Source of the DNA: Bacilli bacterium
Lineage (GTDB): Bacteria; Bacillota_I; Bacilli_A; RFN20; UBA1709
DNA: 64,000 nt
Assembly: GCA_045600465.1 (NCBI GenBank)
Contig: JAZRXY010000028.1
Coordinates: 55,577-119,576 of the forward strand
Direction of reading: 5' to 3'
Both the position numbers and the translations under genes were made by a program. Below the pieces are notes generated by a model. The model was not told the origin of the DNA, made no database searches, and saw only the letters and a program-made list of their open reading frames with translations. How positions within the stretch are numbered: position 1 is the first letter of the stretch; each line of letters opens with the position of its first letter. Of the stretch, positions 51,121-62,266 are shown one piece after another.

Positions 51121-51738
51121 TTAGCGTTTTGTTAGGCCGTCAGTGAGAAGTTTTTTAACAGTATCGACTCTAACTTCAACTTCTGCTGGAACCATTTTTG
51201 AATTATAGAACAAAGTTTCTAGACCAAGGTAAGTTGAGATACCCATTAAGATGTAGGAAAGTGCATTTGAATCAACATCACTTCTAATTTCACTATTCTT
51301 AATAGATTCATTCAAACGTTTTACATAAGAGCGAGAGAATGATTCGTAGTATGACTTAAACATTTCTGGGTCTACTGTTAATCCTTGCCAAATAATACTA
51401 TAAATATGTGGATTTTGTTGAATAAAGTCGATATATGCATTCAAACCACGGGCTTCTGCTTCTATACGATCTTTACAATTTTCAACAGCTTTATTAATGG
51501 CAAGCCTAATATCGTGTTGATAAGAAATAACTAGGTATCGATATAAATCTTGCTTGGTTGGGAAATAGATGTAGAAAGTTCCTACTCCTAATTTGGCATC
51601 TTCAGTGATATCTTGCACTGAAGTGTTGTGGTAGCTATTTTTATAAAAAAGCTTTTCAGCTGAAGATAATATTTTGTTAAATGTTTCAGTGCCTTTTCTT
51701 GTTTTAGGAGCACTGATGTTCGGTCTAATTGAAATCAT
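51121..51738 (-). CDS. TetR/AcrR family transcriptional regulator
   Basis: N-terminal HTH (FNKILSSAEKLFYKNSYHNTSVQDITEDAKLGVGTFYIYF). It is divergent from the cluster. Confidence 0.85.
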   Translation of the reverse strand: MISIRPNISAPKTRKGTETFNKILSSAEKLFYKNSYHNTSVQDITEDAKLGVGTFYIYFPTKQDLYRYLVISYQHDIRLAINKAVENCKDRIEAEARGLNAYIDFIQQNPHIYSIIWQGLTVDPEMFKSYYESFSRSYVKRLNESIKNSEIRSDVDSNALSYILMGISTYLGLETLFYNSKMVPAEVEVRVDTVKKLLTDGLTKR

Positions 51739-51819
51739 TAAGTTATTCCTCCTTTTTTTAGGGATTGTTTATATTTAATCATAAATGATTAAGGGTTGCA
51801 ATAGTTTTTCAAAAAAAAT

Positions 51820-51837
51820 ATGAATGCTAGCGTTCAT
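51820..51837. promoter_or_regulatory. 18-bp near-palindrome ATGAATGCTAGCGTTCAT (16 of 18 symmetric), candidate TetR operator
   Basis: It lies between the divergent promoters, 18 nt from the tetR -35 (TTGCAA at 51796-51801). Confidence 0.45.
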
Positions 51838-51902
51838 AAAAATATTCTTGCATTACTACGTAATAGTGTTAAAATAAAGGTAACCGAATAGGTGTTCATA
51901 AT

Positions 51903-51926
51903 TTTTGGCACTTATAATAGCCAAAA
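51903..51926. promoter_or_regulatory. inverted repeat TTTTGGC-N10-GCCAAAA enclosing the TATAAT (51913-51918) of the cluster promoter
   Basis: Read directly from the sequence; operator-over-promoter geometry. Confidence 0.45.
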
Positions 51927-51995
51927 TTTGAATCGCCTAATATAAATCATGGAATATTTTTTAGAACAGGCAAGTTAATGCGTTTACGTTTCAAA

Positions 51996-52009
51996 AGTAA
52001 GCGCTTTAG
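51996..52009. promoter_or_regulatory. weak cre-like box AGTAAGCGCTTTAG in the 5' leader of the cluster
   Basis: The central GTAAGCGCTTT core matches cre; the outer positions do not. Confidence 0.25.
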
Positions 52010-52058
52010 TATCTAAAATAATATTCTCCCATGGTATCAATTGAAGGAGGAAATTATT

Positions 52059-52781
52059 ATGGGAAGACTAGATGGTAAAGTATGTATTGTTACAGGAGGA
52101 GCAAAAGGATTAGGCCAAGCAATGGCAGAAACTTTTGCAAGAGAAGGCGCTAATGTTATTGCATGTGACGTTATGCCATTAACATATGAATGCAAAAATG
52201 TTGAATGGTTCAAAGTTAACGTTGCTAGCGTTGAGGATTGCAAGGCAGTAACAGAACACGCAATGAAGAAATTTGGCCATATCGACGTATTAGTAAATAA
52301 CGCTGGTGTTACAAGAGACGCATTAACACATAAGATGACAGATGAAATGTGGGATACAGTTATTGGTATCAACCTAAAAGGACCATTCAACATGGTTAGA
52401 GAAATTGGCCCAAAGATGATGGAAGCAGGAAAAGGCTCAATCATTTCAATCTCATCAGTTGTTGGCGAATATGGTAACGTTGGACAAGCTAACTATGCAG
52501 CAACAAAATCAGGCTTATTTGCAATGACAAAATCATGGGCAAAAGAATTTGCAAGAAAAGGTGCACAAGTTAGAGCTAACACAATCGCTCCAGGTTACAC
52601 AATGACAGATATTCTAAAGACTGTTCCAGAAGCATTACTAAATGAATTCAAGAGCAGAACAATGTTAGGAAGACTTGGCGAACCACAAGATATCGCTAAC
52701 GCAGCACTATTCCTAGCAAGTGATGAAGCATGCTACGTAACAGGCACAAATCTATCTGTTAACGGCGGAATGAGACTATAA
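52059..52781 (+). CDS. FabG-like 3-oxoacyl-(ACP/CoA) reductase (SDR)
   Basis: TGGAKGLG, NNAGVTRD, catalytic YAATK. The ATG at 52059 follows a GGAGG SD. Confidence 0.85.
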   Translation: MGRLDGKVCIVTGGAKGLGQAMAETFAREGANVIACDVMPLTYECKNVEWFKVNVASVEDCKAVTEHAMKKFGHIDVLVNNAGVTRDALTHKMTDEMWDTVIGINLKGPFNMVREIGPKMMEAGKGSIISISSVVGEYGNVGQANYAATKSGLFAMTKSWAKEFARKGAQVRANTIAPGYTMTDILKTVPEALLNEFKSRTMLGRLGEPQDIANAALFLASDEACYVTGTNLSVNGGMRL

Positions 52782-52814
52782 TTCTTACTCATATAAGGAA
52801 ACGAGGTAATCAAG

Positions 52815-53840
52815 ATGGCTAAACCAACAGTAGGTATTGTCGGAACTGGTATTTATCTACCAAAGTACACAATGTCAGCAAAAGAAATTTCTGAAGCTAC
52901 AGGCGGAGTATGGAGTGAAGAAGCAGTTCGCGATAAATTAGGTATTAATAAGAAGTACATTCCAGGTCCTGGTATCGAAGACGGTACACAAGAAATGGGA
53001 GTTAAGGCAGCATTAGATTGTTTAAAAAATACAGGTGTTGATCCAAAAGAAATCGACGTAGTTCTATGCATCGGTGAAGAGTGGAAAGAATATCCACTAA
53101 CAACATCAGCAGTTTATATTCAAGAAAAAATCGGTGCAACAAATGCTTGGGGTATCGATGTTCAAAACAGATGCTGTACATGTGTCTCTGCAATGGAAAT
53201 TGCACGTGACATGTTAATCGCTGATGACTCAATCAACACGATTATGGTCGTTGGTGGTTATCGTAATGGAGACTTTATTGATTTCAAAGATAACAACGTA
53301 TCAATGATGTTCAACCTTGGCGCAGGCGGAGGAGCTATCATTCTAAAGAAGAATTATGGTAGAAACAACCTTCTAGCATCACACATTATGTCAGATGGTT
53401 CATTAGCAAGAACAGCTGGTGTTCAAATCGGTGGTCAAGCAGAACCATATACAAAAGACAATATCGATGAAGCAATGAAATCATTAAGACTATTAGATCC
53501 AGTAACGATGAAGAATAGACTTAACGAAGTTTCAATGCCTAACTGGTACAAATGTATTGATAAATCATTTGAAAAAGCAGGACTTCCTAAGAAAATTGAC
53601 TATCTAGCAATTCTTCACATGAAGAAATCAGGTCACTTAGGAATGCTAAAAGATTTAGGTCTAACTGAAGATCAAGCAATTTATCTATCAGATTATGGAC
53701 ATATTGGTCAAGTAGACCAAATTCTATCATTACACCTAGCTTTACAACAAGGTAAAGTTAAAGATGGCAGTATCGTTTGTATGATCGCAGCTGGTATTGG
53801 TTATGTTTGGTCAGCAAACGTTATTAAATGGGGTGAGTAA
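52815..53840 (+). CDS. KAS-III (FabH)-like thiolase-fold condensing enzyme, atypical
   Basis: 341 aa with FabH-like N- and C-terminal halves. Candidate Cys in QNRCCTCVSAM and His in ILHMKK. YGHIGQ sits where FabH has GNTSAAS. Confidence 0.7.
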   Translation: MAKPTVGIVGTGIYLPKYTMSAKEISEATGGVWSEEAVRDKLGINKKYIPGPGIEDGTQEMGVKAALDCLKNTGVDPKEIDVVLCIGEEWKEYPLTTSAVYIQEKIGATNAWGIDVQNRCCTCVSAMEIARDMLIADDSINTIMVVGGYRNGDFIDFKDNNVSMMFNLGAGGGAIILKKNYGRNNLLASHIMSDGSLARTAGVQIGGQAEPYTKDNIDEAMKSLRLLDPVTMKNRLNEVSMPNWYKCIDKSFEKAGLPKKIDYLAILHMKKSGHLGMLKDLGLTEDQAIYLSDYGHIGQVDQILSLHLALQQGKVKDGSIVCMIAAGIGYVWSANVIKWGE

Positions 53841-53846
53841 TATATT

Positions 53847-54761
53847 ATGAGCGTACTACAAGTTTTATTAAGTTCATTACCACTAATTGGCTGCTACTCA
53901 CTAGCAACATTTGGTATTGTCCTTATCTTTAGAACTTCAGCAACAACAAACTACGCTCAAGGTTTAATTGGTAGTGCTGGTGCTTTCATTGCAGCCTACT
54001 TCTCAATTCACGTATTTGGAAGAACTAATTACATCTTGGCAACAGTTATTGCAATGGCTATTGCGTTCTTGTTTGGAGTTTTCGTGGATTCAGGTATTAT
54101 CAAGCGTGGAGATAACTTAAACCCTGCACAAAAGCAAATTGTTACAATGGGTTTATTACTTATCATTAATGCTGTAACACCTATTATCTTCAAGTCATCA
54201 ATTATTTCACAAAATAACGCCGTTCCATACATCTTCAATACAGAATCATGGATGGGTTCATTCCTTTACGTAGGTAAAGGAACAAGTTGGGGTGGATATA
54301 TCACGGCTCAACAACTAACAACATTTTTAGTTGCATTGGTTGTCTTAGGTGCGGTTTTCGCGGCTCTAAAGTTCACAAAATGGGGACTTTCAGTTAGAGC
54401 AACAGCATCAAATGAAACAGTTGGACAAATGATGGGTATTAACACACGCTTTGTCTCAGCTATCTCATGGGGTATCTCAGCAGCATTAGTTACATTATCA
54501 GCATGTTTACTAGCTGGTACACCTATTTCAACAGCCATGATGGGAAATATCCAAGTATTCGGTTTCTTATCAGTTGTTCTTGGTGGTCTAACAAGCTTTT
54601 TTGCCCCAATTATCGGTACAATCATTATTCCTATTCTATACATCACATTCACAGGATGGACATCAGTTTGGGGAGATGCATTCGTATTCGTCGCAGTTTT
54701 ACTTCTAATTATCCTATTCCCTAATGGATTGTTCGGTAAGAAAACTGTAAAGAAAGTGTAG
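53847..54761 (+). CDS. branched-chain-amino-acid-type ABC permease (LivH-like)
   Basis: 304-aa polytopic protein, LivH-family pattern. Confidence 0.8.
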   Translation: MSVLQVLLSSLPLIGCYSLATFGIVLIFRTSATTNYAQGLIGSAGAFIAAYFSIHVFGRTNYILATVIAMAIAFLFGVFVDSGIIKRGDNLNPAQKQIVTMGLLLIINAVTPIIFKSSIISQNNAVPYIFNTESWMGSFLYVGKGTSWGGYITAQQLTTFLVALVVLGAVFAALKFTKWGLSVRATASNETVGQMMGINTRFVSAISWGISAALVTLSACLLAGTPISTAMMGNIQVFGFLSVVLGGLTSFFAPIIGTIIIPILYITFTGWTSVWGDAFVFVAVLLLIILFPNGLFGKKTVKKV

Positions 54762-54770
54762 GTGTGGCGT

Positions 54771-55859
54771 ATGTTAAAATATCAACACAAGTCAAACACT
54801 TTAGAAAAACTAAGCCAAAATACAAAAAAATCTGGTGTTAGTTTCATTATTTTAGGGATTATTCTAACAATAGTTATGATTCTATCTGCCACAAGAGTTA
54901 TTCAAGGAACTTTCGGCACTAAATTAGCTGAAGTTATTGTATATGCTATTATCGCAATTGGTTTTTCATATCTAATTGGATATTCTGGCTTAGCATCACT
55001 AGGAACAGCAGGTCTAGTTGGAGTTGGCGCATATATATGCGCGATCTTCACTAAAAAAGCTGTTACATTAGGATGGATTGCACATGGATGGTCAATTATC
55101 GTTATTGCAATTGTTGCATTAATTGCAGCGTTAATCATTGGCTTAGTCATTGGTTTTGCTTCCTTACGTATTGAAGGTCTATTCCTTGCAATTGTTACAT
55201 TAGGTCTATCAGAAGTTTTAAACAAAGTATTCATTAACGCTAATACAATTACAGATGGTGTTAACGGATACACTATTCCTTATACATATTTGTTTGGGGA
55301 TATTCAAATAGGAAAACTAGGAATGAATATCACGATGTGCGTAGTTCTAGTTTTAATCCTAATTATTACAAATAACGTTGGTAAATCAGCAACAGGTCGT
55401 GCAATGTTATCAATGAAAAACTCAACATCAGCAGCACAAGCTATGGGTATTAGCTTACTAAAATATAGACTAATGGCTTTCATGCTATCAACAGCATATG
55501 CAGCATTAGCAGGCGTTCTATATATGGCTGTCACAAAATTCACAGTACCAAGCAAATGGAGTTTAGTATTCTCACTAAACATCCTTGCAGCATGTGTATT
55601 CGGTGGATCTCGTAACTTATGGGGCATTATGTTTGGTGCATTCTTGATTTTTGGTCTAGAACCACTATTCTTAGTTAACGTTACATTACTAAGAGATAAC
55701 TCATGGTTACTAAGCGTTATTATTGGTGTTATTCTAATTCTTATCGTTTTGTTCTATCGTGGTGGTGTCATCCAACTATTAAACGATATCAAACGTGGAT
55801 TTATGAAATTAACAAGAAGATGGAGGGCAAAGAAGTATGGCTACGATGAAGAACAATAA
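54771..55859 (+). CDS. branched-chain-amino-acid-type ABC permease (LivM-like)
   Basis: GYSGLASLGTAGLVGVGAY. The ATG at 54771 is preferred over the GTG at 54762. Confidence 0.8.
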   Translation: MLKYQHKSNTLEKLSQNTKKSGVSFIILGIILTIVMILSATRVIQGTFGTKLAEVIVYAIIAIGFSYLIGYSGLASLGTAGLVGVGAYICAIFTKKAVTLGWIAHGWSIIVIAIVALIAALIIGLVIGFASLRIEGLFLAIVTLGLSEVLNKVFINANTITDGVNGYTIPYTYLFGDIQIGKLGMNITMCVVLVLILIITNNVGKSATGRAMLSMKNSTSAAQAMGISLLKYRLMAFMLSTAYAALAGVLYMAVTKFTVPSKWSLVFSLNILAACVFGGSRNLWGIMFGAFLIFGLEPLFLVNVTLLRDNSWLLSVIIGVILILIVLFYRGGVIQLLNDIKRGFMKLTRRWRAKKYGYDEEQ

Positions 55860-57408
55860 GAAAAAAGAAAGTCCTACAAATCAAGGCCAAAAATTTGGTG
55901 TCAAATTAAACAGGGACATTGAAAGAATTAAACAAGCCTTCAATAAAGATAAGAATTATGAAAAACAAGTTTCTAATAAAATTGAAAAATTAGAATATCA
56001 AATCTCTCTACATAAAGAATATCCAGGATTAAAAGAGGCAAAATTCAACGAAGCAATCAAAGCAAAAATTGATAACTTCAATGAAAAACACTATCGTAAT
56101 CTTGGCGCATTAGAACTAAAGACAGTTTCAGTCGAAGAAGAATTTGAAGTAGTCTATGCTAGAAGCGAAGAAAAACGCAACAAAGCAAAAGAACTAGACT
56201 TCAGAGCAGAAAGAATGAACATCTTACGTGCTCATAATATGATTGATAAGAACTATCACATTGTTGGAACAATCGAAAAGGATGTTCAAACTGAAATTGA
56301 TAAGGCAAAAAAAGAAGTTGAAGCAAAATATGCAAAACTTCATGATGACGAAAAAGCAAAATATGTTGCAGCAAACGCAAAACGTGATAGCGCAACATTA
56401 AAAGCAAATAAAGAGGTTTTTGACAAAGCAGAAAAAGAATACAAAGCAGTTTTAAAAGAATTTGAAGATTCTTTAAAATCAAAATATGATGAAAAGTTAA
56501 AAGAGTATACTAAAAAAGAAGAAGCTACAGTCAAAAAACTAGAAGCAAATTTAGCCGAAGAAGAAAAGAAGATGGCTGAAATTATTGCTAAAAACAACGA
56601 AAAATATGGTGAATATCAATTACCAAGTGATGTCGTCTTAAGACTAGAGGGACTATCAATGCACTTTGGTGGTCTAAAAGCAGTCGACAACTTAACAGTT
56701 GATATTAAAGAAGGCGAAGTATTCGGATTGATTGGTCCTAACGGAGCTGGGAAAACAACAGTATTCAACTGTATCACACAATTCTACAAACCAACATTTG
56801 GAAAAGTTTGGTACAAAGATGCTGAGGGACGTGCTCTATGCTTAAATGATTACGCAGTTCATAACGTTATCAAATTAGGTATTGTTCGTACATTCCAAAA
56901 CGTTGAACTTATTCCAGAATTAACAGTTCTTCAAAACCTATTAATTGCTGCTCATACAGAAATTAAAACAAATTTATTCCATCATATGGTTCAAACATCA
57001 CGTGTTAAACAAGAAGAGGCTATTCTATATAACCGTGCTATGAAGGTTCTTGAATATCTAGATCTTGTATCAATCAAAGATGTCCCACCAGTTGGATTAC
57101 CATATGGTATCTTAAAGAAAATAGAATTAGCTCGTACATTAATGGCTAATGCACGTGTCATCATTCTTGATGAACCTGCAGCAGGCTTAAATGAAACAGA
57201 AACAGCAGAACTTGCACGTTTAATTAAGAAGATTCAAAAAGACTTCCATGTTACTATTTTCTTAGTTGAACACGATATGGGACTTGTTATGGGTATTTGT
57301 GATCACATTTGTGCTATTTCATTCGGTAAGAAACTAGCATACGGTACACCACAAGAAATTCAAGCTGACCCATACGTACAAGAAGCTTACTTAGGAAGTG
57401 AGGGTTAA
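55837..57408 (+). CDS. LivG-like ABC ATPase with an N-terminal Lys/Glu-rich coiled-coil extension of about 260 aa
   Basis: The C-terminal half has GPNGAGKTT, ILDEPAAGLN and the LivG-type tail (DPYVQEAYLG). The N-terminal half is a K/E/A heptad-like sequence. Confidence 0.8.
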   Translation: MATMKNNKKKESPTNQGQKFGVKLNRDIERIKQAFNKDKNYEKQVSNKIEKLEYQISLHKEYPGLKEAKFNEAIKAKIDNFNEKHYRNLGALELKTVSVEEEFEVVYARSEEKRNKAKELDFRAERMNILRAHNMIDKNYHIVGTIEKDVQTEIDKAKKEVEAKYAKLHDDEKAKYVAANAKRDSATLKANKEVFDKAEKEYKAVLKEFEDSLKSKYDEKLKEYTKKEEATVKKLEANLAEEEKKMAEIIAKNNEKYGEYQLPSDVVLRLEGLSMHFGGLKAVDNLTVDIKEGEVFGLIGPNGAGKTTVFNCITQFYKPTFGKVWYKDAEGRALCLNDYAVHNVIKLGIVRTFQNVELIPELTVLQNLLIAAHTEIKTNLFHHMVQTSRVKQEEAILYNRAMKVLEYLDLVSIKDVPPVGLPYGILKKIELARTLMANARVIILDEPAAGLNETETAELARLIKKIQKDFHVTIFLVEHDMGLVMGICDHICAISFGKKLAYGTPQEIQADPYVQEAYLGSEG

Positions 57409-57410
57409 TT

Positions 57411-58175
57411 ATGGGAAACATTTTAGAGATTAAGAATTTAAATGTTACTTATGGAGCAATCCATGCACTTCAAGACGTTAACATTAATGTTCCTGAAGGA
57501 AGTATCGTTGCACTATTAGGATCTAATGGTGCAGGAAAATCCACAACCCTAAGAACGATTAGTGGAGTAGTTAAGGCCAAAAGTGGAGAAATTCTACTTA
57601 ATGGTGAAAATATTTTAAATAAACGTCCTTATCACATTGCTAAGGAAGGTATTATTCAATCACCTGAAGGAAGAATGATTCTAAATGGCTTAACTGTTGA
57701 AGATAATCTAAAAGTAGGAGCATATGCTACAAAGGGTCAAACTATCATTGAGGATGGGAAAGAAGTAAAACTAACAAAGGCTCAAGTAATTGAACGTAAC
57801 TTTGAAAGAGTTTACAAACACTTCCCAATTCTAAAAGAAAGAGCAACCCAACAAGCAAGCACACTATCTGGTGGTGAGCAACAAATGCTTGCTATCGGAA
57901 GAGCTTTAATGGCTAGCCCAAAGGTTCTACTATTAGACGAGCCTTCCTTAGGTCTCGCACCTCTAATTGTTAGAGATATTTTCAAGATTATTCTAGAACT
58001 AAAGCGCGAGGGAAGCACAATCTTGATTGTTGAACAAAATGCGTTTCAAACATTAAAGATTGCTGATTATGCTTATGTTCTTGATTTAGGTAAGATAAGT
58101 ATGGAAGGTAAGGCACAAGACTTATTAAAAGATGAAAAACTTATCGAGGCTTACCTAGGAGAAAAGAAAGCCTAA
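57411..58175 (+). CDS. LivF-like ABC ATPase
   Basis: GSNGAGKST, LSGGEQQMLAIGRAL, LLLDEPSLGLAP. Confidence 0.9.
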   Translation: MGNILEIKNLNVTYGAIHALQDVNINVPEGSIVALLGSNGAGKSTTLRTISGVVKAKSGEILLNGENILNKRPYHIAKEGIIQSPEGRMILNGLTVEDNLKVGAYATKGQTIIEDGKEVKLTKAQVIERNFERVYKHFPILKERATQQASTLSGGEQQMLAIGRALMASPKVLLLDEPSLGLAPLIVRDIFKIILELKREGSTILIVEQNAFQTLKIADYAYVLDLGKISMEGKAQDLLKDEKLIEAYLGEKKA

Positions 58176-58200: not shown

Positions 58201-59559
58201 ATGAAAAAACTAGTAAAGGCAATTGCCGCTTTAGCTGTTGCTGCAACAACATTAGTTGGCTGTGGTGAAGGCGGAAAATTCGTCGAAGGTGTCTCAAAAG
58301 ACACAATCAAAATTGGTGCAGCAATTGCATCAGAAGGTGCTTACGCATCAGTTGGTGTCCCATATGGTGACGAATACAAACTATATGTTGACTACATCAA
58401 CGCACACTTAGACAAATACCCAGAACTTCAAGGACACAAACTACAAGCTATCGTCTACGATGATAAGGGTGACGGTGCAGCAGGTGCACAATACATCAAC
58501 CAATTAATCGAAGATGACGACGTATTCGCATTAGTCGGTATCCTAGGAACATGGAACCTAGTCGCTGCAGAAGAAACATTAAAGAGCTGCGGTGTTCCTC
58601 AAGTTTACTACGGAACAGGTACATCAGTACAAATGTTCGATGGTTCAGCAGATTCACCATTCGCAACAGGAAATGAAAAATACATGATGGGCGTTCAACC
58701 TCTATATAAGACAGAAGGACGTTTAATGTATCTACGTTGCTTAACATATGCTGGATTCAACGATGTTAAGAAAATCGGTGTTGTTTACTCAACATCAGAT
58801 GATGGCCTATCACTAAAGGCTGGTATTGAAATGCAAGCTGCATTAGATACAAAGACAAATACAGAAATTATTTATCAACAAGTTTCAACAACTGTATCAA
58901 ACGAAATGACAGCACAAATCAAAGCTGTCGAGGACTGTGACGTAATTATCGCTGCAGGTAACCAAACATACTTCAAGGGTATCTATGATGCTGTTCAAAC
59001 AAATGAAAAAGCAAAAGGTACACCAATTCTAACAACATACGTTAACATCGCTCCAACAACAGTCCCAGATTCAGCTATTTCAGCTGGAGCATCAGATATC
59101 TATGGTGCTGCATGGGTTATCATTGGATACGAAACAGGTAACGAATCACCAGAAGCTGCAAGACGTGTTCAAGATTTACAAGACTTTGTTGACATCCTAA
59201 CATGGGCTAAAGATCAAGGCACCATCAATGCACAACAATTCGCAGATTACAGCATTAACGCATACGCTATGTCTTCATACATTGCTATTAAGATGTTCTT
59301 AAACGGTATGAAAGAATTAAAAGCAAAAGGCTACGATATCACACGTGCTAACTATCTAAAAGCAATGGAAGAAGCAGGTTCACTACCAGTAGCTATCTCA
59401 GGTTCAGTTAACTATCGTCCAAACGGCGAACGTATTGGTCTAGACTCACTATCATTCGTTAAATACGAAAAACCAGCAAGTGGTTCAGCACAAAGCGGTA
59501 CATTCGTACAAGTCGATGCAATGAAGTCAATCGATACACTATTCGCTGAATTAAAGTAA
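58201..59559 (+). CDS. LivJ/Peripla_BP_6-type substrate-binding lipoprotein
   Basis: Lipobox LVGCGE; 452 aa, type I periplasmic-binding fold pattern. Confidence 0.8.
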   Translation: MKKLVKAIAALAVAATTLVGCGEGGKFVEGVSKDTIKIGAAIASEGAYASVGVPYGDEYKLYVDYINAHLDKYPELQGHKLQAIVYDDKGDGAAGAQYINQLIEDDDVFALVGILGTWNLVAAEETLKSCGVPQVYYGTGTSVQMFDGSADSPFATGNEKYMMGVQPLYKTEGRLMYLRCLTYAGFNDVKKIGVVYSTSDDGLSLKAGIEMQAALDTKTNTEIIYQQVSTTVSNEMTAQIKAVEDCDVIIAAGNQTYFKGIYDAVQTNEKAKGTPILTTYVNIAPTTVPDSAISAGASDIYGAAWVIIGYETGNESPEAARRVQDLQDFVDILTWAKDQGTINAQQFADYSINAYAMSSYIAIKMFLNGMKELKAKGYDITRANYLKAMEEAGSLPVAISGSVNYRPNGERIGLDSLSFVKYEKPASGSAQSGTFVQVDAMKSIDTLFAELK

Positions 59560-59617
59560 TTTATTACTAAATTTATTTAATTTTCAAATTTAAAAAACAA
59601 AACATGACTAAATAATG

Positions 59618-59657
59618 GCAAGGGAGAGTCTTCCCTCTCTCCCTTGCATTATTTTAT
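59618..59657 (+). terminator. strong GC-rich hairpin with a U-rich tail between the binding-protein gene and the CoA-transferase gene
   Basis: GCAAGGGAGAG-8 nt-CTCTCCCTTGC (11 perfect bp) followed by ATTATTTTATT. Confidence 0.6.
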
Positions 59658-59675
59658 TATTAGGAGGGTTTAGTT

Positions 59676-61001
59676 ATGGAATATCAAGACAAATTAATTA
59701 GCATAAAAGAAGCTTTAGATTTAGTTAAATCGGATATGGTTATCGTTACAGGCCTTGGTGCTAGTGAAGCACTAGACTTCATGAATAACCTACATACAAT
59801 TGCTGACCGCGTTAAAAACGTTTATGTCAACAACTGCCTACCTATGAGTAAGTGTGAATTCTTGAATTATCCAGGATCATTCTTTGCAGATGGTTGGTTC
59901 TACACACCTTTATATAGAAAATTACAAAGAAATAACGGAAATGTTTCCTTTATTCCTAACCATCTACACTTTGCAGGAACAAGAAGATTAGAACACATTA
60001 GTCCTGATATCTTTGTTTGTGCTGCATCAATGCCTGATAAACACGGTTACATATCACTATCATTAGGTAACACATATGAAAAGCAAGCTTTAAAAGCTGC
60101 AAAAATTGTTATTTTAGAAATCAACCCTAACTATCCAAGAACATTTGGAGATGTTGAGGTTAATATAAAAGATGTCGACTATCTAGTTAAAGTCGATTAC
60201 CCAGTACCAACACTACCTGATGTTCCTTTCACAGAAAAGGATGAAAAGATTGGTAAATTCATCGCTGATTACGTTCACGATGGAGATTGCATTCAATTAG
60301 GTATTGGTGGAATTCCTAATGCTGTAGCAGAAGCACTAAAAGGTAAGAAACATTTAGGAATTCATACAGAAATGTTAACTTCTGGAATGGCAGAACTTAT
60401 TGAAATGGGTGTAGTTGATAACTCATGTAAACAAATCAATAATGGTAAGACTGTTACAACATTCATTTTAGGAAACCAAAAACTTTACGATTTAGTAAAT
60501 GATAACCCATCAATTATGGTTATGGATGGAAGTTATACAAACAATCCATTTATCATTGCTCAAAATGATAATCAAGTATCCATCAACACAACAGTTGAAG
60601 TTGACCTAACTGGTCAATGCTGTTCAGAATCAATTGGTTCAGAACAAATAAGTGGTAGTGGAGGACAAGCAGACACAGCTATTGGTGCTAGATTATCAAA
60701 GGGTGGCCGCTCAATTATTGCTTTATATTCAACAGCAATGGTTAAGAATCCAGAAACAGGTGAAAAAGAAGAGGTCTCAAAAATTGTTCCTCAACTAAAA
60801 CCAGGTGCTATTGTAACATTGCAACGTCAAGATGTTGACTATGTTGTTACAGAATATGGTATTGTTAACCTAACAGGTACAACAGTTGCAGAAAGAGTTG
60901 AAAAACTAATTTCAATTGCTCACCCTAAATATAGAGAAGATTTATACAAGCAAGCAGTTGCTTTGGGTATTTGTGGCGACTATCGTAAATATAACAAATA
61001 A
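59676..61001 (+). CDS. acetyl-CoA hydrolase/transferase family protein (4-hydroxybutyrate / butyryl-CoA:acetate CoA-transferase-like)
   Basis: 441 aa. LGIGGIPNAV, EVDLTGQCCSESIG, SGSGGQADT. Confidence 0.85.
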   Translation: MEYQDKLISIKEALDLVKSDMVIVTGLGASEALDFMNNLHTIADRVKNVYVNNCLPMSKCEFLNYPGSFFADGWFYTPLYRKLQRNNGNVSFIPNHLHFAGTRRLEHISPDIFVCAASMPDKHGYISLSLGNTYEKQALKAAKIVILEINPNYPRTFGDVEVNIKDVDYLVKVDYPVPTLPDVPFTEKDEKIGKFIADYVHDGDCIQLGIGGIPNAVAEALKGKKHLGIHTEMLTSGMAELIEMGVVDNSCKQINNGKTVTTFILGNQKLYDLVNDNPSIMVMDGSYTNNPFIIAQNDNQVSINTTVEVDLTGQCCSESIGSEQISGSGGQADTAIGARLSKGGRSIIALYSTAMVKNPETGEKEEVSKIVPQLKPGAIVTLQRQDVDYVVTEYGIVNLTGTTVAERVEKLISIAHPKYREDLYKQAVALGICGDYRKYNK

Positions 61002-61030
61002 AAATAGAAGTCTTCGAAAGGAGAAATAAA

Positions 61031-61849
61031 ATGGCTGTATTTAAATACAAAGGATTAGATTTCAATTATGAAATCCATGGGGAAGGAAAACCATTGCTAA
61101 TACTAAATGGAATTATGATGTCATGTATGTCATGGTATCCTTTACTCCCAAACTTAAAAGAAAATAACAAAGTTATTCTTGTCGATATGCTAAACCAAGG
61201 AAAATCAGCTCATGTTAATTTTGACTTTACTCAAGATTATCAAGTAGAACTAATTAAAGCTTTACTTGATGAACTAGAATTAAAGAAAGTTTCAATTTGC
61301 GGAATTTCTTATGGTGGCGAAGTTGCATTAAGATTTGCGGTTAAACATCAAGAATACATTGAACGCTTAGTATTATCAAATACATTAGCTTATACTAACT
61401 CTTGGTTAGGTGACATTGGTAAAGCATGGAACTTAGTAGCAGCAAGCGGAAATGGTGAAGCTTATTACTACACAACAATTCCTGTTATCTATTCACCAGA
61501 ATTCTACACATCAAGAAGTGAATGGATGGAAAATAGAAGAAAAATTTTAGTACCACTATTTAGTGATCCTAATTTCTACAATGCAATGATTGGTTTAACT
61601 AAGAGTGCTGATGATCACAACGTTTGTGATAAATTAAATACAATTACAGTACCAACATTAATTATAGGCTGTGATCAAGACTATTTAACACCTTTCCCAG
61701 AACAACAATACATTCATGACAATATCAAAGGTTCAAAACTAGTAAGAATTGAACACTCAGGTCATGCTTCAATGTATGAACAACCACTAGTTTGGACATC
61801 GTTAGTTACAGGTTTTGTTAATAGTAAAGATGTTGAATTTAAAATTTAA
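61031..61849 (+). CDS. alpha/beta hydrolase
   Basis: Nucleophile elbow GISYGG and a C-terminal HSGH. Confidence 0.8.
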   Translation: MAVFKYKGLDFNYEIHGEGKPLLILNGIMMSCMSWYPLLPNLKENNKVILVDMLNQGKSAHVNFDFTQDYQVELIKALLDELELKKVSICGISYGGEVALRFAVKHQEYIERLVLSNTLAYTNSWLGDIGKAWNLVAASGNGEAYYYTTIPVIYSPEFYTSRSEWMENRRKILVPLFSDPNFYNAMIGLTKSADDHNVCDKLNTITVPTLIIGCDQDYLTPFPEQQYIHDNIKGSKLVRIEHSGHASMYEQPLVWTSLVTGFVNSKDVEFKI

Positions 61850-61867
61850 AAATAAAGGAGAAATAAT

Positions 61868-62266
61868 ATGGCATTAAAATGTACAACAGGAAGTCTAACA
61901 AAGACAATTCTAGATGCAGACGTAAGAAAATTCTCAGAAGTCTCACTAGACACAAACCCACTTCATCTAGATGAAGAATTCGCAAAAACAACAATCTTCG
62001 GACGTAGAATTGCACATGGTATGATTAGCGCAGGTTTAATCTCAGCAGTTCTAGCTAACAAGTGCCCAGGACAAGGAACAATTTATCTAGGACAAACACT
62101 AGAATTCAAAGCTCCAGTATTCCTAGGAGATACAATCACAGCAACTGTTACAGTTGAAGATGAGGGTAGTAAGCCAGAAAAAGGTATCTACAAATTAAGA
62201 ACAGATGTAGTTAACCAAGATGGCAAACTAGTTACAACAGGTTTTGCTACAGTAATGTACAAATAA
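61868..62266 (+). CDS. MaoC-like (R)-specific enoyl-CoA hydratase / dehydratase
   Basis: DTNPLHLDEEFAKTTIFGRRIAHGM hot-dog motif. Confidence 0.85.
   Translation: MALKCTTGSLTKTILDADVRKFSEVSLDTNPLHLDEEFAKTTIFGRRIAHGMISAGLISAVLANKCPGQGTIYLGQTLEFKAPVFLGDTITATVTVEDEGSKPEKGIYKLRTDVVNQDGKLVTTGFATVMYK

What the first reader, a model, noticed from the sequence alone, without database searches (positions are those of the whole stretch)
51121..62266. TetR-headed 11-gene cluster joining a Liv-type ABC importer to FabG-like, KAS-III-like, CoA-transferase, alpha/beta-hydrolase and MaoC enzymes: an uncharacterised carboxylate uptake and CoA-processing system?
Gene order:
- tetR (divergent)
- FabG-like SDR
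- atypical KAS-III-like enzyme
- livH-like, livM-like, livG-like (extended), livF-like and the binding lipoprotein
- strong hairpin
- 4-hydroxybutyrate/butyryl-CoA:acetate-type CoA-transferase
- alpha/beta hydrolase (GISYGG)
- MaoC (R)-hydratase

All genes are co-directional with short gaps.

The enzyme set is three quarters of a beta-oxidation/elongation cycle (ketoreduction, C-C bond formation or cleavage, hydration/dehydration). It runs on CoA rather than ACP, since there is a CoA-transferase and no acpP. There is no acyl-CoA dehydrogenase, enoyl reductase or acyl-CoA ligase. It is welded to a transporter family usually assigned to amino acids but also known to import aromatic and aliphatic acids.

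In my by-eye alignment the KAS-III-like protein appears to lack the canonical Asn of the Cys-His-Asn triad (YGHIGQ where FabH has GNTSAAS).

One coherent hypothesis is import and catabolism of a 3-hydroxy or 3-oxo acid, or its oligo-ester:
- the hydrolase cleaves the ester
- the CoA-transferase activates the acid
- the SDR oxidises the 3-hydroxyacyl-CoA
- the KAS-III-like enzyme acts thiolytically
- MaoC links to enoyl-CoA and butyrate

A biosynthetic role, for example an (R)-3-hydroxyacyl product, is equally possible. I know of no characterised operon with this composition.
Basis: inference. Interest (0 to 1): 0.7.

Follow-up and report, generated by a model that had tools for sequence, protein, structure and literature searches.

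The report
Conserved uptake-and-CoA operon, odd ketosynthase
This is a real operon, conserved in hundreds of anaerobic bacterial species but never characterised. It joins an ABC importer to CoA-dependent enzymes, most likely to take up a small 3-hydroxy/3-oxo acid or its ester (best guess: 3-hydroxybutyrate and its oligomers) and ferment it. Its signature enzyme is a mis-annotated 'ketoacyl-ACP synthase' whose reaction is unknown.

Summary
This includes the hairpin and the Asn-to-His change in the KAS-III-like protein.

It is not a chance juxtaposition. At least 578 loci in a one-genome-per-species collection carry an ortholog of the KAS-like gene. In 41 loci with full flanks, nearly all show the same set:
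- TetR, SDR, KAS-like
- LivHMGF plus binding protein
- 4-hydroxybutyrate-type CoA-transferase
- alpha/beta hydrolase

It is not housekeeping fatty acid synthesis. There is no acpP and no second FabH. More distant family members sit in the same kind of operon in haloarchaea, which have no ACP.

Genes that recur in relatives but are absent from this window point to catabolism of C4 units:
- acetoacetyl-CoA-type thiolase
- a Bacillus-type intracellular PHB depolymerase
- acyl-CoA dehydrogenase with EtfAB
- acetate kinase
- in Clostridium homopropionicum, an AtoE/AtoDA block in place of the ABC importer

The best reading is uptake and CoA-dependent dismutation of (R)-3-hydroxybutyrate or its oligo-esters, or a closely related short 3-hydroxy/3-oxo acid. 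The substrate and the KAS-like reaction remain untested. I found no characterised operon of this composition. I rate it a new variant of a known kind, of moderately high interest.

The parts
51121..51738 (-). Divergent TetR-family regulator (205 aa). It is the likely repressor of the operon, and its ligand is probably an acyl-CoA (inferred).
   Evidence: PF00440 TetR_N, 47.8 bits. The best PDB relative is 6el2/6en8, E 3e-26. A TetR is present in 37 of the 40 related loci with full flanks tallied.
51739..52058 (.). 320-nt divergent promoter/operator region between tetR and the SDR gene.
   Evidence: Sequence. The RBS GGAGGA lies at 52046-52051. The palindrome TGAATGCTAGCGTTCA at 51821-51836 is the only exact match in the window, but it is not found in any related locus, so it is only a weak operator candidate.
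52059..52781 (+). FabG-like classical SDR (240 aa from ATG 52059; the mechanical ORF starts at TTG 52041). Proposed role: NAD(H)-dependent (R)-3-hydroxyacyl-CoA / acetoacetyl-CoA oxidoreductase.
   Evidence: adh_short_C2, 204.6 bits. It scores below every FabG and PhaB equivalog cut-off. The best PDB hit is 4nbt, E 1.7e-92. The Asp at the end of beta-2 ('VIACDV', D43) is kept in the commonest orthologue variants among 75 orthologues. The S-Y-K catalytic residues are present.
52815..53840 (+). Atypical KAS-III-like protein (341 aa) of family NF005308/PRK06840, with Cys120-His268-His296 in place of Cys-His-Asn. It is the signature gene of the system, and its reaction is unknown.
   Evidence: NF005308, 469.7 bits against a cut-off of 315; FabH models TIGR00747 and NF006829 score far below their cut-offs. 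Alignment to FabH structures. Conservation. It is 71-87% identical across the 80 related loci. The AF2 model has a FabH fold, TM 0.78, about 20% identity.
53847..54761 (+). LivH-like permease (HAAT-family ABC importer).
   Evidence: PF02653, 68.6 bits. Only weak UrtB/LivH similarity, far below cut-offs.
54762..55859 (+). LivM-like permease.
   Evidence: PF02653, 101.8 bits.
55837..57408 (+). LivG-like ATPase with a ~260-aa Lys/Glu-rich N-terminal extension.
   Evidence: ABC_tran plus BCA_ABC_TP_C in residues 284-522. The extension is 42% K/E/D/R. Orthologues range from 276 to 544 aa.
57411..58175 (+). LivF-like ATPase.
   Evidence: ABC_tran, 107 bits. LivF model 229 bits against a cut-off of 441.
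58201..59559 (+). Substrate-binding lipoprotein (452 aa, lipobox LVGC). Ligand unknown.
   Evidence: Peripla_BP_6, 63.4 bits. No NCBIfam hit. AF2 pLDDT 90.6. Foldseek: best hit 4n03, a 'fatty acid ABC transporter' binding protein, followed by a mix of Leu/Ile/Val binders and aromatic-acid binders, all about 15% identical. Its closest homologues (50-58%) are in Treponema, inside the same cluster.
59618..59647 (+). Strong hairpin (11-bp stem, 7 G-C pairs) plus T-rich tail between the binding-protein and CoA-transferase genes. It is probably a partial terminator or mRNA-stabilising element (inferred).
   Evidence: sequence.
59676..61001 (+). Family-I CoA-transferase of the 4-hydroxybutyrate / butyryl-CoA:acetate type (441 aa).
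   Evidence: AcetylCoA_hyd_C, 203 bits. TIGR03948, 282 bits against a cut-off of 675. PDB 9vag and 3gk7, E 1e-88 and 1e-86. E232 aligns with E238 of 3gk7.
61031..61849 (+). Cytoplasmic alpha/beta-fold serine hydrolase (272 aa, GISYGG with Ser93, no signal peptide). It is most likely an esterase.
   Evidence: Abhydrolase_1, 74 bits. PDB 4q3l 'MGS-M2', E 8e-79. The best NCBIfam hit is PcaD-like, 115 bits, below its cut-off; the PHA-depolymerase model NF050089 scores only 80 bits.
61868..62266 (+). MaoC-type (R)-specific enoyl-CoA hydratase (132 aa).
   Evidence: PF01575, 84.3 bits. The hydratase motif D-x-N-P-L-H lies in residues 26-33, 'SLDTNPLH'. In relatives it always travels with acyl-CoA dehydrogenase (14 of 14 loci).
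62311..62342 (+). Hairpin plus T-run that ends the operon (AAAAGGCTCAATA-TTCG-TTATTGAGCCTTTTTT).
   Evidence: Read directly from the sequence. The consensus scan did not call it.

Best explanation
This is a TetR-controlled catabolic operon. It imports a small polar carboxylate or ester through a HAAT-type (Liv-like) ABC importer and processes it as CoA thioesters into the acetyl-CoA / crotonyl-CoA / butyryl-CoA hub of a fermentative anaerobe.

The most likely substrate is (R)-3-hydroxybutyrate and its short oligo-esters, that is, breakdown products of poly-3-hydroxybutyrate. I give this about 0.4. The general reading, that it catabolises a short 3-hydroxy/3-oxo acid or its ester, I give about 0.7.

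Proposed steps. Only the family assignments are shown; every step is inferred.
1. The lipoprotein binds the substrate and LivHMGF imports it.
2. The cytoplasmic serine hydrolase cleaves ester bonds.
3. The 4-hydroxybutyrate-type CoA-transferase moves CoA from acetyl- or butyryl-CoA to the free acid.
4. The NAD-type SDR oxidises (R)-3-hydroxyacyl-CoA to 3-oxoacyl-CoA.
5. The KAS-III-like Cys-His-His enzyme cleaves thiolytically through an acyl-Cys intermediate. It would cleave either the 3-oxoacyl-CoA or, more speculatively, the oligo-ester itself.
6. MaoC dehydrates (R)-3-hydroxybutyryl-CoA to crotonyl-CoA, which enzymes encoded elsewhere in this genome reduce to butyryl-CoA.

The net result is a dismutation to acetate plus butyrate, with ATP gained from acetyl-CoA. 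The TetR probably releases its operator on binding a pathway acyl-CoA.
For: Conservation:
- At least 578 loci in a one-genome-per-species collection carry a KAS-like ortholog.
- Counts in the 40 loci with full flanks tallied: KAS 40, LivF/G/H 39, SDR, binding protein, TetR, hydrolase and CoA-transferase 37 each, PhaZ-like second hydrolase 31, thiolase 27, acyl-CoA dehydrogenase and MaoC 14 each, EtfB 11, EtfA 10, acetate kinase 4.
- The same cluster occurs in Anaerocolumna, Izemoplasmatales, Acholeplasma, Christensenellales, Proteiniclasticum and termite-gut Treponema.

Pointers to the substrate:
- 26 of 41 second hydrolases reach about 300 bits on NF050089, the intracellular short-chain PHA depolymerase model (cut-off 300).
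- The representative second hydrolase matches the solved PHB depolymerase 8ynv at E 2e-69.
- In Clostridium homopropionicum the ABC block is replaced by an AtoE short-chain fatty acid transporter (603 bits) plus AtoD/A next to KAS-CoAT-MaoC. That organism lives by 3-hydroxybutyrate dismutation (PMC4591306) and carries phaEC (PMC5159582).

Enzymes:
- The CoA-transferase is closest to 4-hydroxybutyrate/butyrate CoA-transferases, and its catalytic Glu is aligned.
- The SDR has the NAD-type Asp in the commonest orthologue variants. Its best PDB hit is 4nbt. From memory, 4nbt is the NADH-dependent, acetoacetyl-CoA-active FabG homologue of Acholeplasma laidlawii.
- The thiolase of relatives scores as acetyl-CoA C-acetyltransferase (466 bits).
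- The hydrolase is 268 bits from the metagenomic esterase MGS-M2 and has no signal peptide.

Not fatty acid synthesis: no acpP or second FabH in the window or in any fetched locus.

Wider family theme: regulator, acid activation (CoA-transferase or AMP-ligase), MaoC, KAS-like, esterase or lactonase, and a HAAT ABC importer. This set is seen in Acidobacteriota, other Spirochaetes, Bacillus/Brevibacillus and haloarchaea.
Against: - No experiment exists on any member.
- The window's own copy lacks the PhaZ-type hydrolase, thiolase, acyl-CoA dehydrogenase/Etf and acetate kinase.
- The binding protein's ligand is unknown, and its fold neighbours include both Leu/Ile/Val binders and carboxylate binders.
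- An ATP-driven importer is energetically poor for monomeric 3-hydroxybutyrate, which by my own stoichiometry yields about 0.5 ATP per molecule by dismutation. This favours oligomers or another, richer substrate.
- The role of the most conserved gene, the KAS-like one, is not explained by any known 3-hydroxybutyrate pathway. Most clusters already carry an ordinary thiolase.
- PHB is not an obvious major substrate in rumen, gut or termite habitats, where the cluster is common.
Confidence: 0.5

Rival explanations
1. The architecture is the same, but the substrate is different: a polyketide-like beta-diketo, hydroxy-oxo acid or lactone. Examples are triacetate (3,5-dioxohexanoate) and 3-hydroxy-5-oxohexanoate from phloroglucinol or resorcinol breakdown, or a short hydroxy-acid lactone. 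In this reading the hydrolase opens a ring, lactone or beta-diketone, and the CoA-transferase activates the acid. The SDR then oxidises the 3-hydroxy group. The KAS-like enzyme is the 'triacetyl-CoA' thiolase and the ordinary thiolase cleaves acetoacetyl-CoA.
For: - It gives the KAS-like enzyme a natural job, the reverse of a KAS-III / type-III-PKS condensation. It also explains why most clusters carry two thiolase-superfamily enzymes.
- HAAT binding proteins with this fold bind phenolic and aromatic acids.
- The ecology fits: rumen, termite-gut Treponema, and a sister clade in Holophaga/Geothrix.
- Relatives in Bacillus and Brevibacillus carry a lactonase/arylesterase-like NHL/SGL beta-propeller in place of the alpha/beta hydrolase.
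- The CoA-transferase/thiolase variant of the phloroglucinol pathway, described biochemically in Pelobacter acidigallici, still has no assigned genes (PMC10470551 notes that no genome is available).
Against: - The characterised phloroglucinol cluster uses different enzymes: PGR, a cyclase-family DPGC, TfD and a BKACE-family TAL (PMC10470551). No cyclase or BKACE family turned up among the window proteins or the recurrent neighbours that I profiled.
- Only one SDR is present, and it is NAD-type, whereas phloroglucinol reduction needs NADPH.
- The PhaZ-equivalog hydrolase and the AtoE/AtoDA context point to C4 units.
- The window's hydrolase is closest to an esterase.
Confidence: 0.17
2. The operon is biosynthetic. 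The KAS-like enzyme condenses an imported, CoA-activated short acid with acetyl- or malonyl-CoA. The SDR and MaoC then reduce and dehydrate the product. The result would be an (R)-3-hydroxyacyl product, a primer for lipid synthesis, or an Ole-like or PHA-like product.
For: - The fold and the retained Cys/His are those of condensing enzymes. Cys-His-His is the KAS I/II triad (established knowledge).
- KAS-like plus SDR plus alpha/beta hydrolase superficially recalls OleA/OleD/OleB.
- From memory, Acholeplasma uses exogenous short acids as fatty-acid primers.
- The thiolase, SDR and MaoC resemble PhaA, PhaB and PhaJ.
Against: - There is no ACP, malonyl-transferase, carboxylase, OleC-type ligase or PHA synthase in the window or in any of about 90 loci.
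- The SDR is NAD-type, not the NADPH type usual for biosynthesis.
- Recurrent partners are catabolic or fermentative: PHB depolymerase, Bcd-like dehydrogenase with EtfAB, acetate kinase, AtoDAE.
- The CoA-transferase family works in acid activation and fermentation end-steps.
- An embedded importer plus cytoplasmic esterases fit breakdown better than synthesis.
Confidence: 0.12
3. The transporter is an ordinary branched-chain or neutral amino acid importer. It is merely co-transcribed with short-chain acyl-CoA (butyrate-type) fermentation enzymes, and they share no substrate.
For: - The permeases and ATPases hit Liv and Urt models.
- Fold neighbours of the binding protein include LivJ/LivK.
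- The enzymes resemble a butyrate pathway.
Against: - All Liv equivalog scores are far below their cut-offs, and the binding protein hits no NCBIfam model.
- The transporter sits between KAS-like and the CoA-transferase in nearly every locus across phyla. Every close homologue of the binding protein whose context I inspected (two Treponema/Spirochaete loci) lies inside this cluster.
- In haloarchaea the KAS-like gene is translationally coupled to the permease gene.
- In C. homopropionicum the block is swapped for a short-chain fatty acid transporter, not for an amino acid transporter.
Confidence: 0.06

Closest known systems
PHB mobilisation / 3-hydroxybutyrate dismutation (PhaZ esterase, PhaJ (R)-hydratase, PhaB-type reductase, PhaA thiolase; 3-hydroxybutyrate fermentation of Clostridium homopropionicum)
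   Same: The enzyme kinds match: esterase, (R)-hydratase, (R)-3-hydroxyacyl-CoA oxidoreductase, acetoacetyl-CoA thiolase, CoA-transferase and Bcd/Etf in relatives. There is a PhaZ equivalog in most related clusters. The cluster is present in a documented 3-hydroxybutyrate fermenter (PMC4591306).
   Different: A dedicated HAAT ABC importer is embedded in the operon. A PRK06840 KAS-III-like enzyme, which no described PHB or 3-hydroxybutyrate pathway contains, is the most conserved gene. The SDR is NAD-type. This window's copy lacks PhaZ, thiolase and Bcd/Etf. No PHA synthase is linked.
E. coli ato system (AtoDA acetoacetate CoA-transferase, AtoE transporter, AtoB thiolase, sigma-54 activator AtoC)
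   Same: The logic is the same: uptake of a short-chain (oxo)acid, CoA transfer from acetyl-CoA, and thiolysis. In C. homopropionicum, AtoD/A/E and a sigma-54 activator sit right next to KAS-CoAT-MaoC.
   Different: The CoA-transferase family differs (single-chain 4-hydroxybutyrate type, not AtoDA). The transporter is an ABC importer rather than AtoE, and the regulator is TetR rather than AtoSC. There are extra SDR, hydrolase, MaoC and KAS-like enzymes.
FabH (beta-ketoacyl-ACP synthase III), the current database name of the signature gene
   Same: Thiolase/KAS-III fold with both ACP_syn_III domains. The nucleophilic Cys and the first His are kept.
   Different: About 20% identity. Asn274 is replaced by His. 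Scores fall far below the FabH model cut-offs. There is no ACP or fab context, and the family also occurs in Archaea next to ABC importers. A K-[D/E]-Y motif sits where FabH has the pocket-capping Phe87.
HAAT-importer-linked acid beta-oxidation clusters (for example the Rhodopseudomonas palustris pimelate/dicarboxylate and coumarate uptake systems; recalled from the literature)
   Same: A Liv-like ABC importer with a Peripla_BP_6 binding protein is dedicated to a carboxylate, not an amino acid. It is encoded with the enzymes that activate and degrade that acid. PDB neighbours of the binding protein include such carboxylate binders.
   Different: Activation here is by a CoA-transferase, not an AMP-ligase, which suits an anaerobic, ATP-saving lifestyle. 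The chain is short, the hydrolases are conserved members, and a KAS-like enzyme stands in place of, or beside, a thiolase.
Anaerobic phloroglucinol degradation cluster of Clostridium scatologenes (PGR, DPGC, TfD, TAL, thiolase, CtfAB, acetate/butyrate kinase; PMC10470551)
   Same: A short oxo/hydroxy-acid is funnelled to acetoacetyl-CoA, acetyl-CoA, acetate and butyrate. An SDR, a C-C/ester-type hydrolytic step, a thiolase and a CoA-transferase take part. The habitats are similar.
   Different: The cyclase-family DPGC and the BKACE-family TAL are absent here. The KAS-like enzyme, alpha/beta hydrolases and ABC importer are absent there.

Membership tests
FabH / beta-ketoacyl-ACP synthase III | KAS-III fold with ACP_syn_III and ACP_syn_III_C domains | tested here: met
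   PF08545 53.9 bits and PF08541 58 bits. Foldseek TM 0.78 to FabH structures.
FabH / beta-ketoacyl-ACP synthase III | Cys-His-Asn catalytic triad | tested here: not met
   Cys120 and His268 align, but the FabH Asn aligns with His296. This His is at least 90% conserved across the family.
FabH / beta-ketoacyl-ACP synthase III | Score above the curated FabH model cut-offs | tested here: not met
   TIGR00747 scores 100.8 against 292.1. NF006829 scores 116.1 against 249.
FabH / beta-ketoacyl-ACP synthase III | Works with ACP, in a fab/acpP genomic context | tested here: not met
   No acpP or other fab gene in the window or in any fetched locus. Family members occur in haloarchaeal ABC-importer operons. 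Biochemical ACP dependence is not testable here.
NCBIfam NF005308 (PRK06840, '3-oxoacyl-ACP synthase', function uncharacterised) | Whole-protein score above the curated cut-off of 315 bits | tested here: met
   469.7 bits over residues 4-341. Relatives at 33-53% identity also pass, with 328-442 bits.
HAAT (LivHMGF plus binding protein) ABC importer | Two BPD_transp_2 permeases, two ATPases (one with the BCA_ABC_TP_C tail) and a Peripla_BP_6 binding protein | tested here: met
LIV-I branched-chain amino acid transporter (LivJ/K-HMGF equivalogs) | Scores above the Liv equivalog cut-offs, and a binding protein of the LivJ/K type | tested here: not met
   LivH 35.9 against 379, LivM 84 against 366, LivG 273 against 362, LivF 229 against 441. 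The binding protein hits no NCBIfam model. Ligand binding is not testable here.
4-hydroxybutyrate / butyryl-CoA:acetate CoA-transferase family | AcetylCoA_hydro N- and C-terminal domains and the catalytic Glu | tested here: met
   PF13336 203 bits and PF02550 40 bits. E232 aligns with E238 of 3gk7. That E238 is the catalytic residue is recalled from the literature.
Butyryl-CoA:acetate CoA-transferase (TIGR03948 equivalog) | Score above 674.8 bits | tested here: not met
   282.4 bits.
Intracellular short-chain-length PHA depolymerase (NF050089) | Score above 300 bits | tested here: not met
   The window's hydrolase scores 80.4 bits, over the N-terminal third only. The second hydrolase of related clusters does meet it in 26 of 41 cases, but that gene is absent from the window.
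MaoC / (R)-specific enoyl-CoA hydratase | MaoC_dehydratas domain with the hydratase-2 motif (D-x-N-P-x-H) | tested here: met
   PF01575 84.3 bits. 'SLDTNPLH' lies at residues 26-33.
Characterised anaerobic phloroglucinol pathway cluster | Cyclase-family dihydrophloroglucinol cyclohydrolase and BKACE-family triacetate acetoacetate-lyase | tested here: not met
   Neither family appears among the window's proteins or among the recurrent neighbours of the related loci. The pathway definition is from PMC10470551.
OleABCD olefin/beta-lactone pathway | OleC AMP-dependent beta-lactone synthetase beside OleA, OleD and OleB | tested here: not met
   No AMP-binding gene in the window cluster. OleA appears only as a distant fold neighbour.

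The most novel reading that the evidence does not exclude
The PRK06840 KAS-III-like protein is not a condensing enzyme. It would be a CoA-dependent, thiolytic cleaving enzyme that works as the obligate cytoplasmic partner of a HAAT ABC importer. Through an acyl-Cys intermediate it would convert the imported oligo-ester (for example the 3-hydroxybutyrate dimer or trimer) directly into acyl-CoA. That conserves the ester-bond energy as a thioester and makes ATP-driven uptake pay for a fermenter. The transporter/KAS-like pairing would then be an ancient 'import and trap as CoA ester' module shared by Bacteria and haloarchaea.
Probability: 0.15. Interest if true: 0.85.

Novelty: new variant of a known kind. 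Interest (0 to 1): 0.6.

Why it matters
The cluster is common in anaerobes of rumen, gut, termite hindgut, sediments and digesters, and also in genome-reduced Acholeplasma and Izemoplasmatales. Yet every database calls its signature gene a '3-oxoacyl-ACP synthase' and its transporter a 'branched-chain amino acid' importer.

If the reading here is right, these annotations mislead metabolic reconstructions of hundreds of species. They would hide a route that turns a short hydroxy-acid, or bacterial polyester debris, into acetate and butyrate.

The KAS-like enzyme belongs to a large family with no solved structure and no assigned reaction. It carries a Cys-His-His triad on a KAS-III scaffold and is tightly linked to ABC importers from Bacteria to haloarchaea. 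Defining its chemistry would add a new function to the thiolase superfamily.

Cultured carriers exist (Anaerocolumna aminovalerica, Clostridium homopropionicum, Proteiniclasticum sediminis, Acholeplasma granularum), so the question can be tested directly.

Tried and rejected
- **Housekeeping fatty acid synthesis.** Rejected. There is no acpP or second FabH in the window or in any locus, and all FabG/FabH equivalog scores fall below their cut-offs.
- **Chance juxtaposition.** Rejected.
- **HMG-CoA-synthase-like catalytic Glu.** E88 lies 32 residues before the Cys, the same spacing as Glu79/Cys111 of S. aureus MvaS. I validated my recalled MvaS sequence as 100% identical to 1xpk. hhalign does pair E88 with Glu79, but at only 6% probability. 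E88 is not conserved in the wider family. The idea is left as unsupported.
- **TetR operator.** The palindrome TGAATGCTAGCGTTCA at 51821-51836 is absent from all related loci, so it gives no comparative support.
- **Binding-protein ligand from structure.** The model is good (pLDDT 90.6), but the PDB neighbours are about 15% identical and mix amino-acid and carboxylate binders. This does not discriminate.
- **KAS-like structure.** The AF2 model from 13 close sequences has pLDDT 73.9, and confidence is low exactly at the active-site loops. It is useful only for the fold.
- **Literature.**
  - No paper mentions PRK06840 or MGS-M2.
  - The original papers on MGS-M2 and on 4nbt are not in the library.
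  - Searches on operon composition and on PHB depolymerases in anaerobes found no characterised system of this kind.
- **Known phloroglucinol cluster.** The composition differs.
- **Source organism.** The exact protein is on a single unnamed 119.7-kb NCBI contig. The nearest named relative is Anaerorhabdus sp., at 86% identity for the KAS-like protein.
- **Rfam.** No riboswitch or other RNA in 50000-64000 apart from one tRNA.

Full report
**1. What is in the window**

The window is low-GC DNA (about 0.28-0.38 G+C). Its closest named relative is Anaerorhabdus (Erysipelotrichales-like Bacilli), whose KAS-like protein is 86% identical. The exact proteins lie on one unnamed 119.7-kb NCBI contig.

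- a divergent TetR
- a FabG-like SDR
- a KAS-III-like protein
- two BPD_transp_2 permeases
- a LivG-like ATPase with a ~260-aa Lys/Glu-rich N-terminal extension
- a LivF-like ATPase
- a Peripla_BP_6 lipoprotein (lipobox LVGC)
- a single-chain AcetylCoA_hydro-type CoA-transferase
- an alpha/beta hydrolase (GISYGG, Ser93, no signal peptide)
- a MaoC hydratase carrying the D-x-N-P-x-H motif

Intergenic distances run from -23 to 33 nt, except 116 nt before the CoA-transferase gene. That gap holds the 11-bp, G+C-rich hairpin at 59618-59647. The operon ends with a hairpin and T-run at about 62311-62342. The SDR most likely starts at ATG 52059, behind a GGAGGA site, which gives 240 aa like its PDB homologue.

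The 64-kb window holds no acpP, no second FabH, no thiolase, no acyl-CoA dehydrogenase, no Etf and no acetate kinase. Upstream lie gpmI, eno, a tRNA and a small membrane protein.

**2. The atypical KAS-III-like protein**

phmmer alignments to the FabH structures 2ebd and 4dfe pair C120 with the FabH nucleophile and H268 with the FabH histidine. They pair H296 ('YGHIGQ') with the FabH asparagine ('GNTSAAS').

The protein passes the curated cut-off of NCBIfam NF005308 (PRK06840), with 469.7 bits against 315. It fails all FabH models.

In a search of 1.84 billion representative proteins, the family shows a continuum from 53% down to about 25% identity. Relatives at 33-53% identity all pass NF005308. 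The His at the Asn position is conserved in at least 90% of them. A few have Ser in place of the Cys.

A K-[D/E]-Y motif (K91-E92-Y93) sits where FabH has the pocket-capping Phe87. It is conserved family-wide. I read this as a hint that the bound acyl group is polar. This is inference.

No member has a solved structure. The AF2 model has the FabH fold (TM 0.78, about 20% identity) but is unreliable at the active-site loops.

An HMG-CoA-synthase-like catalytic Glu (E88) is suggested by spacing. It is not supported by family conservation.

**3. Conservation of the gene set**

Scale and identity:
- A degenerate-pattern scan of one genome per species found more than 599 matches, of which 578 were confirmed relatives. 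The best 80 loci carry KAS-like proteins 70-87% identical to the window's.
- Percent identity to the window's proteins is highest for the KAS-like protein (71-87%), followed by the SDR (59-78%) and the CoA-transferase (55-78%).
- It is lower for LivF (54-85%) and the hydrolase (40-60%), and lowest for the permeases (31-67%) and the binding protein (26-65%).

Gene content, from BLASTP of all ORFs in these loci against the window's proteins. Counts for the 40 loci with at least 8 kb upstream and 9 kb downstream:

| Component | Loci (of 40) |
|---|---|
| KAS-like | 40 |
| LivF, LivG, LivH | 39 each |
| SDR, binding protein, TetR, hydrolase, CoA-transferase | 37 each |
| LivM | 35 |

Carriers include:
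- Anaerocolumna aminovalerica and Izemoplasmatales
- Acholeplasma granularum, Christensenellales, Proteiniclasticum, Clostridium rhizosphaerae, Subdoligranulum CAG:314, Holdemania, and many rumen, gut and digester MAGs

The window's binding protein has its closest homologues (50-58%) in termite-gut Treponema. The two such loci I inspected carry the same cluster. So the binding protein is dedicated to this system, and the system crosses phyla.

**4. Genes that recur in relatives but are missing here**

Clustering of the unassigned neighbouring ORFs, followed by profile searches, gave four recurrent additions:
- **A thiolase**, in 27 of 40 loci. It is placed Thl-SDR-KAS and scores as acetyl-CoA C-acetyltransferase (466 bits).
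- **A second alpha/beta hydrolase**, in 31 of 40 loci.
  - Its representative scores 322.6 bits on NF050089, the intracellular short-chain-length PHA depolymerase model (cut-off 300).
  - 26 of 41 members reach that level.
  - The representative matches the solved PHB depolymerase 8ynv at E 2e-69 over its full length.
- **An acyl-CoA dehydrogenase with EtfB and EtfA**, in 10-14 of 40 loci. It is Bcd/AcrC-like (527 bits). It is always with MaoC: 14 of 14 in the 41-locus retally.
- **Acetate kinase**, in 4 of 40 loci.

In the closest relatives with enough flank (L009, L010), the dehydrogenase and Etf genes follow MaoC directly. In the window that position is taken by an opposite-strand AAA_14/DUF4143 ATPase gene, flanked by 36-nt direct repeats. 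The window's copy therefore looks like a trimmed version.

**5. Informative variants**

- **Clostridium homopropionicum.** The ABC block is absent. The order is: hydrolase, sigma-54 activator, KAS-like, CoA-transferase, MaoC, AtoD, AtoA, then an AtoE-type short-chain fatty acid transporter (603 bits).
  - This species grows on 2-, 3- or 4-hydroxybutyrate. [quoted passage not shown]
  - It also carries phaEC (PMC5159582).
- **Minimal clusters.** L039, L045 and L033 keep only a PhaZ-like hydrolase, the KAS-like gene and the ABC importer.
- **Sister KAS-like clade (44% identity).** It occurs in Rectinemataceae, Holophaga, Geothrix and Mesoterricola. It sits among a TetR, a CoA-transferase, a second KAS-like gene, hydrolases, a thiolase, an SDR, an AMP-ligase and a Liv-type importer.
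- **More distant relatives (31-34% identity).**
  - In Bacillus and Brevibacillus the order is TetR, AMP-ligase, MaoC, KAS-like, then an NHL/SGL beta-propeller of the lactonase/arylesterase type. A Liv importer (Bacillus) or an SDR (Brevibacillus) follows.
  - In haloarchaea (Salarchaeum, Halobaculum) the KAS-like gene is the last gene of a binding protein-ATPase-ATPase-permease-permease operon. In Salarchaeum a MaoC, an alpha/beta hydrolase and an AMP-ligase lie just upstream; the Halobaculum locus instead shows an AMP-ligase, an SDR and an acyl-CoA dehydrogenase nearby.
  - Archaea lack ACP (established knowledge), so the family name '3-oxoacyl-ACP synthase' cannot describe these members.

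The invariant theme is a regulator, an acid-activating enzyme, a KAS-like enzyme, an esterase or lactonase, and a HAAT importer. MaoC and an SDR are often present too.

**6. The other enzymes**

- **CoA-transferase.** Its closest solved relatives are 4-hydroxybutyrate CoA-transferases (E 1e-88 to 1e-82). E232 aligns with E238 of the Clostridium aminobutyricum enzyme 3gk7. It scores far below the butyryl-CoA:acetate equivalog cut-off, so it is a distinct subfamily of a C4-acid-handling family.
- **SDR.** It has Ser-Tyr-Lys, and the commonest orthologue variants keep an Asp at the end of beta-2. In the classical SDR classification this marks NAD(H) rather than NADP(H) use. Its best PDB hit is 4nbt (E 1.7e-92), followed by 4nbu, 4nbv and 4nbw. 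From memory, these are the NADH-dependent FabG homologues assayed on acetoacetyl-CoA by Javidpour et al. (2014), and 4nbt comes from Acholeplasma laidlawii. I could not retrieve that paper.
- **Window hydrolase.** It scores 268 bits against 4q3l 'MGS-M2'. From memory, that protein is a carboxylesterase from an activity screen of a deep-sea anoxic brine metagenome.
- **TetR.** Its best solved relative is 6el2/6en8 (E 3e-26). From memory, that is the acyl-CoA-responsive FadR of Sulfolobus acidocaldarius.
- **Binding protein.** It gives a confident model (pLDDT 90.6). Its fold neighbours are about 15% identical. They mix a 'fatty acid ABC transporter' binding protein, aromatic-acid binders and Leu/Ile/Val binders, so they do not settle the ligand.

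**7. Most likely mechanism**

The gene set of the full clusters is exactly what 3-hydroxybutyrate dismutation needs:
- CoA transfer to the acid
- NAD-linked oxidation of (R)-3-hydroxybutyryl-CoA to acetoacetyl-CoA
- thiolysis to acetyl-CoA
- (R)-specific dehydration to crotonyl-CoA
- Bcd/Etf reduction to butyryl-CoA
- CoA recycling by the transferase
- ATP from acetyl-CoA through acetate kinase

A role for an (R)-hydratase in PHA mobilisation has precedent in Haloferax mediterranei (Liu et al. 2016, cited in PMC5159582).

Cytoplasmic esterases, one of them a PHB-depolymerase equivalog, imply an intracellular ester. With an importer in the operon, imported 3-hydroxybutyrate oligomers are the simplest candidate. 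In phaEC carriers the cell's own PHB is another.

By my own stoichiometry, monomeric 3-hydroxybutyrate yields about 0.5 ATP by dismutation. That sits badly with an ATP-driven importer, and it favours oligomers or a richer substrate.

The KAS-like enzyme is the unexplained piece. The conservative proposal is a thiolase-like retro-Claisen cleavage of a polar 3-oxoacyl-CoA. The more novel proposal is CoA-dependent cleavage of the ester itself through an acyl-Cys intermediate, which would conserve the bond as a thioester.
- Thiolytic PHB cleavage to 3-hydroxybutyryl-CoA has been reported for Ralstonia eutropha granules (Uchino et al. 2007, as summarised in PMC7147478).
- KAS-III-like O-acyltransferases such as CerJ and ChlB3 are sequence and fold relatives.
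- The minimal clusters, which lack a CoA-transferase, fit the ester-cleaving proposal slightly better.

None of this has been tested.

**8. Rivals**

- **Same architecture, different substrate.** A polyketide-like oxo/hydroxy acid or lactone (triacetate, or 3-hydroxy-5-oxohexanoate from phloroglucinol or resorcinol) would give the KAS-like enzyme a natural role. It also fits the rumen, termite and Holophaga distribution and the lactonase-like propeller of the Bacillus relatives. However, the characterised phloroglucinol cluster uses a cyclase-family hydrolase and a BKACE lyase that are absent here. The PhaZ and AtoE contexts point to C4 units.
- **Biosynthetic role.** This is disfavoured by the NAD-type SDR, by the lack of ACP, carboxylase, OleC or PHA synthase, and by the catabolic neighbours.
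- **Plain amino acid importer that is merely co-transcribed.** This is disfavoured by the strict, cross-phylum linkage, including translational coupling in haloarchaea, and by the swap to an AtoE transporter.

**9. Novelty and verdict**

I found no characterised operon of this composition. No paper in the library mentions the family.

The metabolism proposed is of a known kind: short-chain hydroxy-acid fermentation and PHB mobilisation. New here are the genetic solution (a HAAT importer welded to CoA enzymes) and the PRK06840 KAS-like enzyme, which is universal in these clusters. I class it as a new variant of a known kind.

Interest is moderately high, for four reasons. The system is very widespread. 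It is systematically mis-annotated. It centres on an enzyme family with no known reaction. It can be tested directly in cultured carriers.

Noticed in passing
window 62405-62440 and 63673-63708 (flanking 62451-63641, minus strand): Two 36-nt direct repeats (97% identical, each with an internal palindrome TTTCGCAAA...TTTGCGAAA) bracket an AAA_14/DUF4143 ATPase gene. This is exactly where close relatives carry acyl-CoA dehydrogenase and Etf genes after MaoC. It may be an insertion or rearrangement that truncated the operon.
   Followed up: partly
window 63741-63947: A ~102-nt tandem duplication (78% identical). Each copy has a TGTCAAAT...ATTTGACA inverted repeat and ends in a Shine-Dalgarno-like AATCCTCCTTT on the opposite strand. 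It lies just upstream of an ORF that starts at 63975 and runs off the window. There is no Rfam match.
   Followed up: partly
window 55837-56620: The LivG-like ATPase has a ~260-aa Lys/Glu-rich (42% charged), probably coiled-coil N-terminal extension with no Pfam domain. Orthologues vary from 276 to 544 aa. A Treponema locus has a LivM-LivG fusion of 686 aa.
   Followed up: partly
window 50393-50472 (+): A tRNA gene (Rfam RF00005, 50.6 bits) lies between eno and a 183-aa multi-pass membrane protein (50511-51062) that has no Pfam family. A bidirectional hairpin terminator at 51087-51114 separates that gene from tetR.
   Followed up: no
proteins P0137, P0142, P0144, P0150 (distant PRK06840 family members, not in the window): Some family members have Ser in place of the active-site Cys while keeping the Gly-His of the third triad position. 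This recalls the Ser-nucleophile KAS-III-like acyltransferase DpsC.
   Followed up: no
L011:18535-19506 and L012 (rumen and gut Clostridia MAGs): In two loci the alpha/beta hydrolase position after the CoA-transferase is taken by a second, FabH-like KAS-III (NF006829, 260 bits, above its cut-off). Its third triad position reads 'YGYTGS' rather than 'YGNTS'.
   Followed up: partly
L089 (Salarchaeum plasmid pJOR178) and L090 (Halobaculum roseum plasmid): Haloarchaeal plasmids carry PRK06840-type '3-oxoacyl-ACP synthase' genes that overlap the last permease gene of a Liv-type ABC operon. Archaea have no ACP, so the annotation is wrong at least there.
   Followed up: partly
L091 9984-11846 and L092 10025-11923 (Bacillus sp. 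N5-665, Brevibacillus laterosporus): In aerobic Bacilli the KAS-like gene is followed by a ~620-aa NHL-repeat/SGL beta-propeller protein (lactonase/arylesterase-like) instead of an alpha/beta hydrolase. It is preceded by an AMP-ligase and MaoC.
   Followed up: partly
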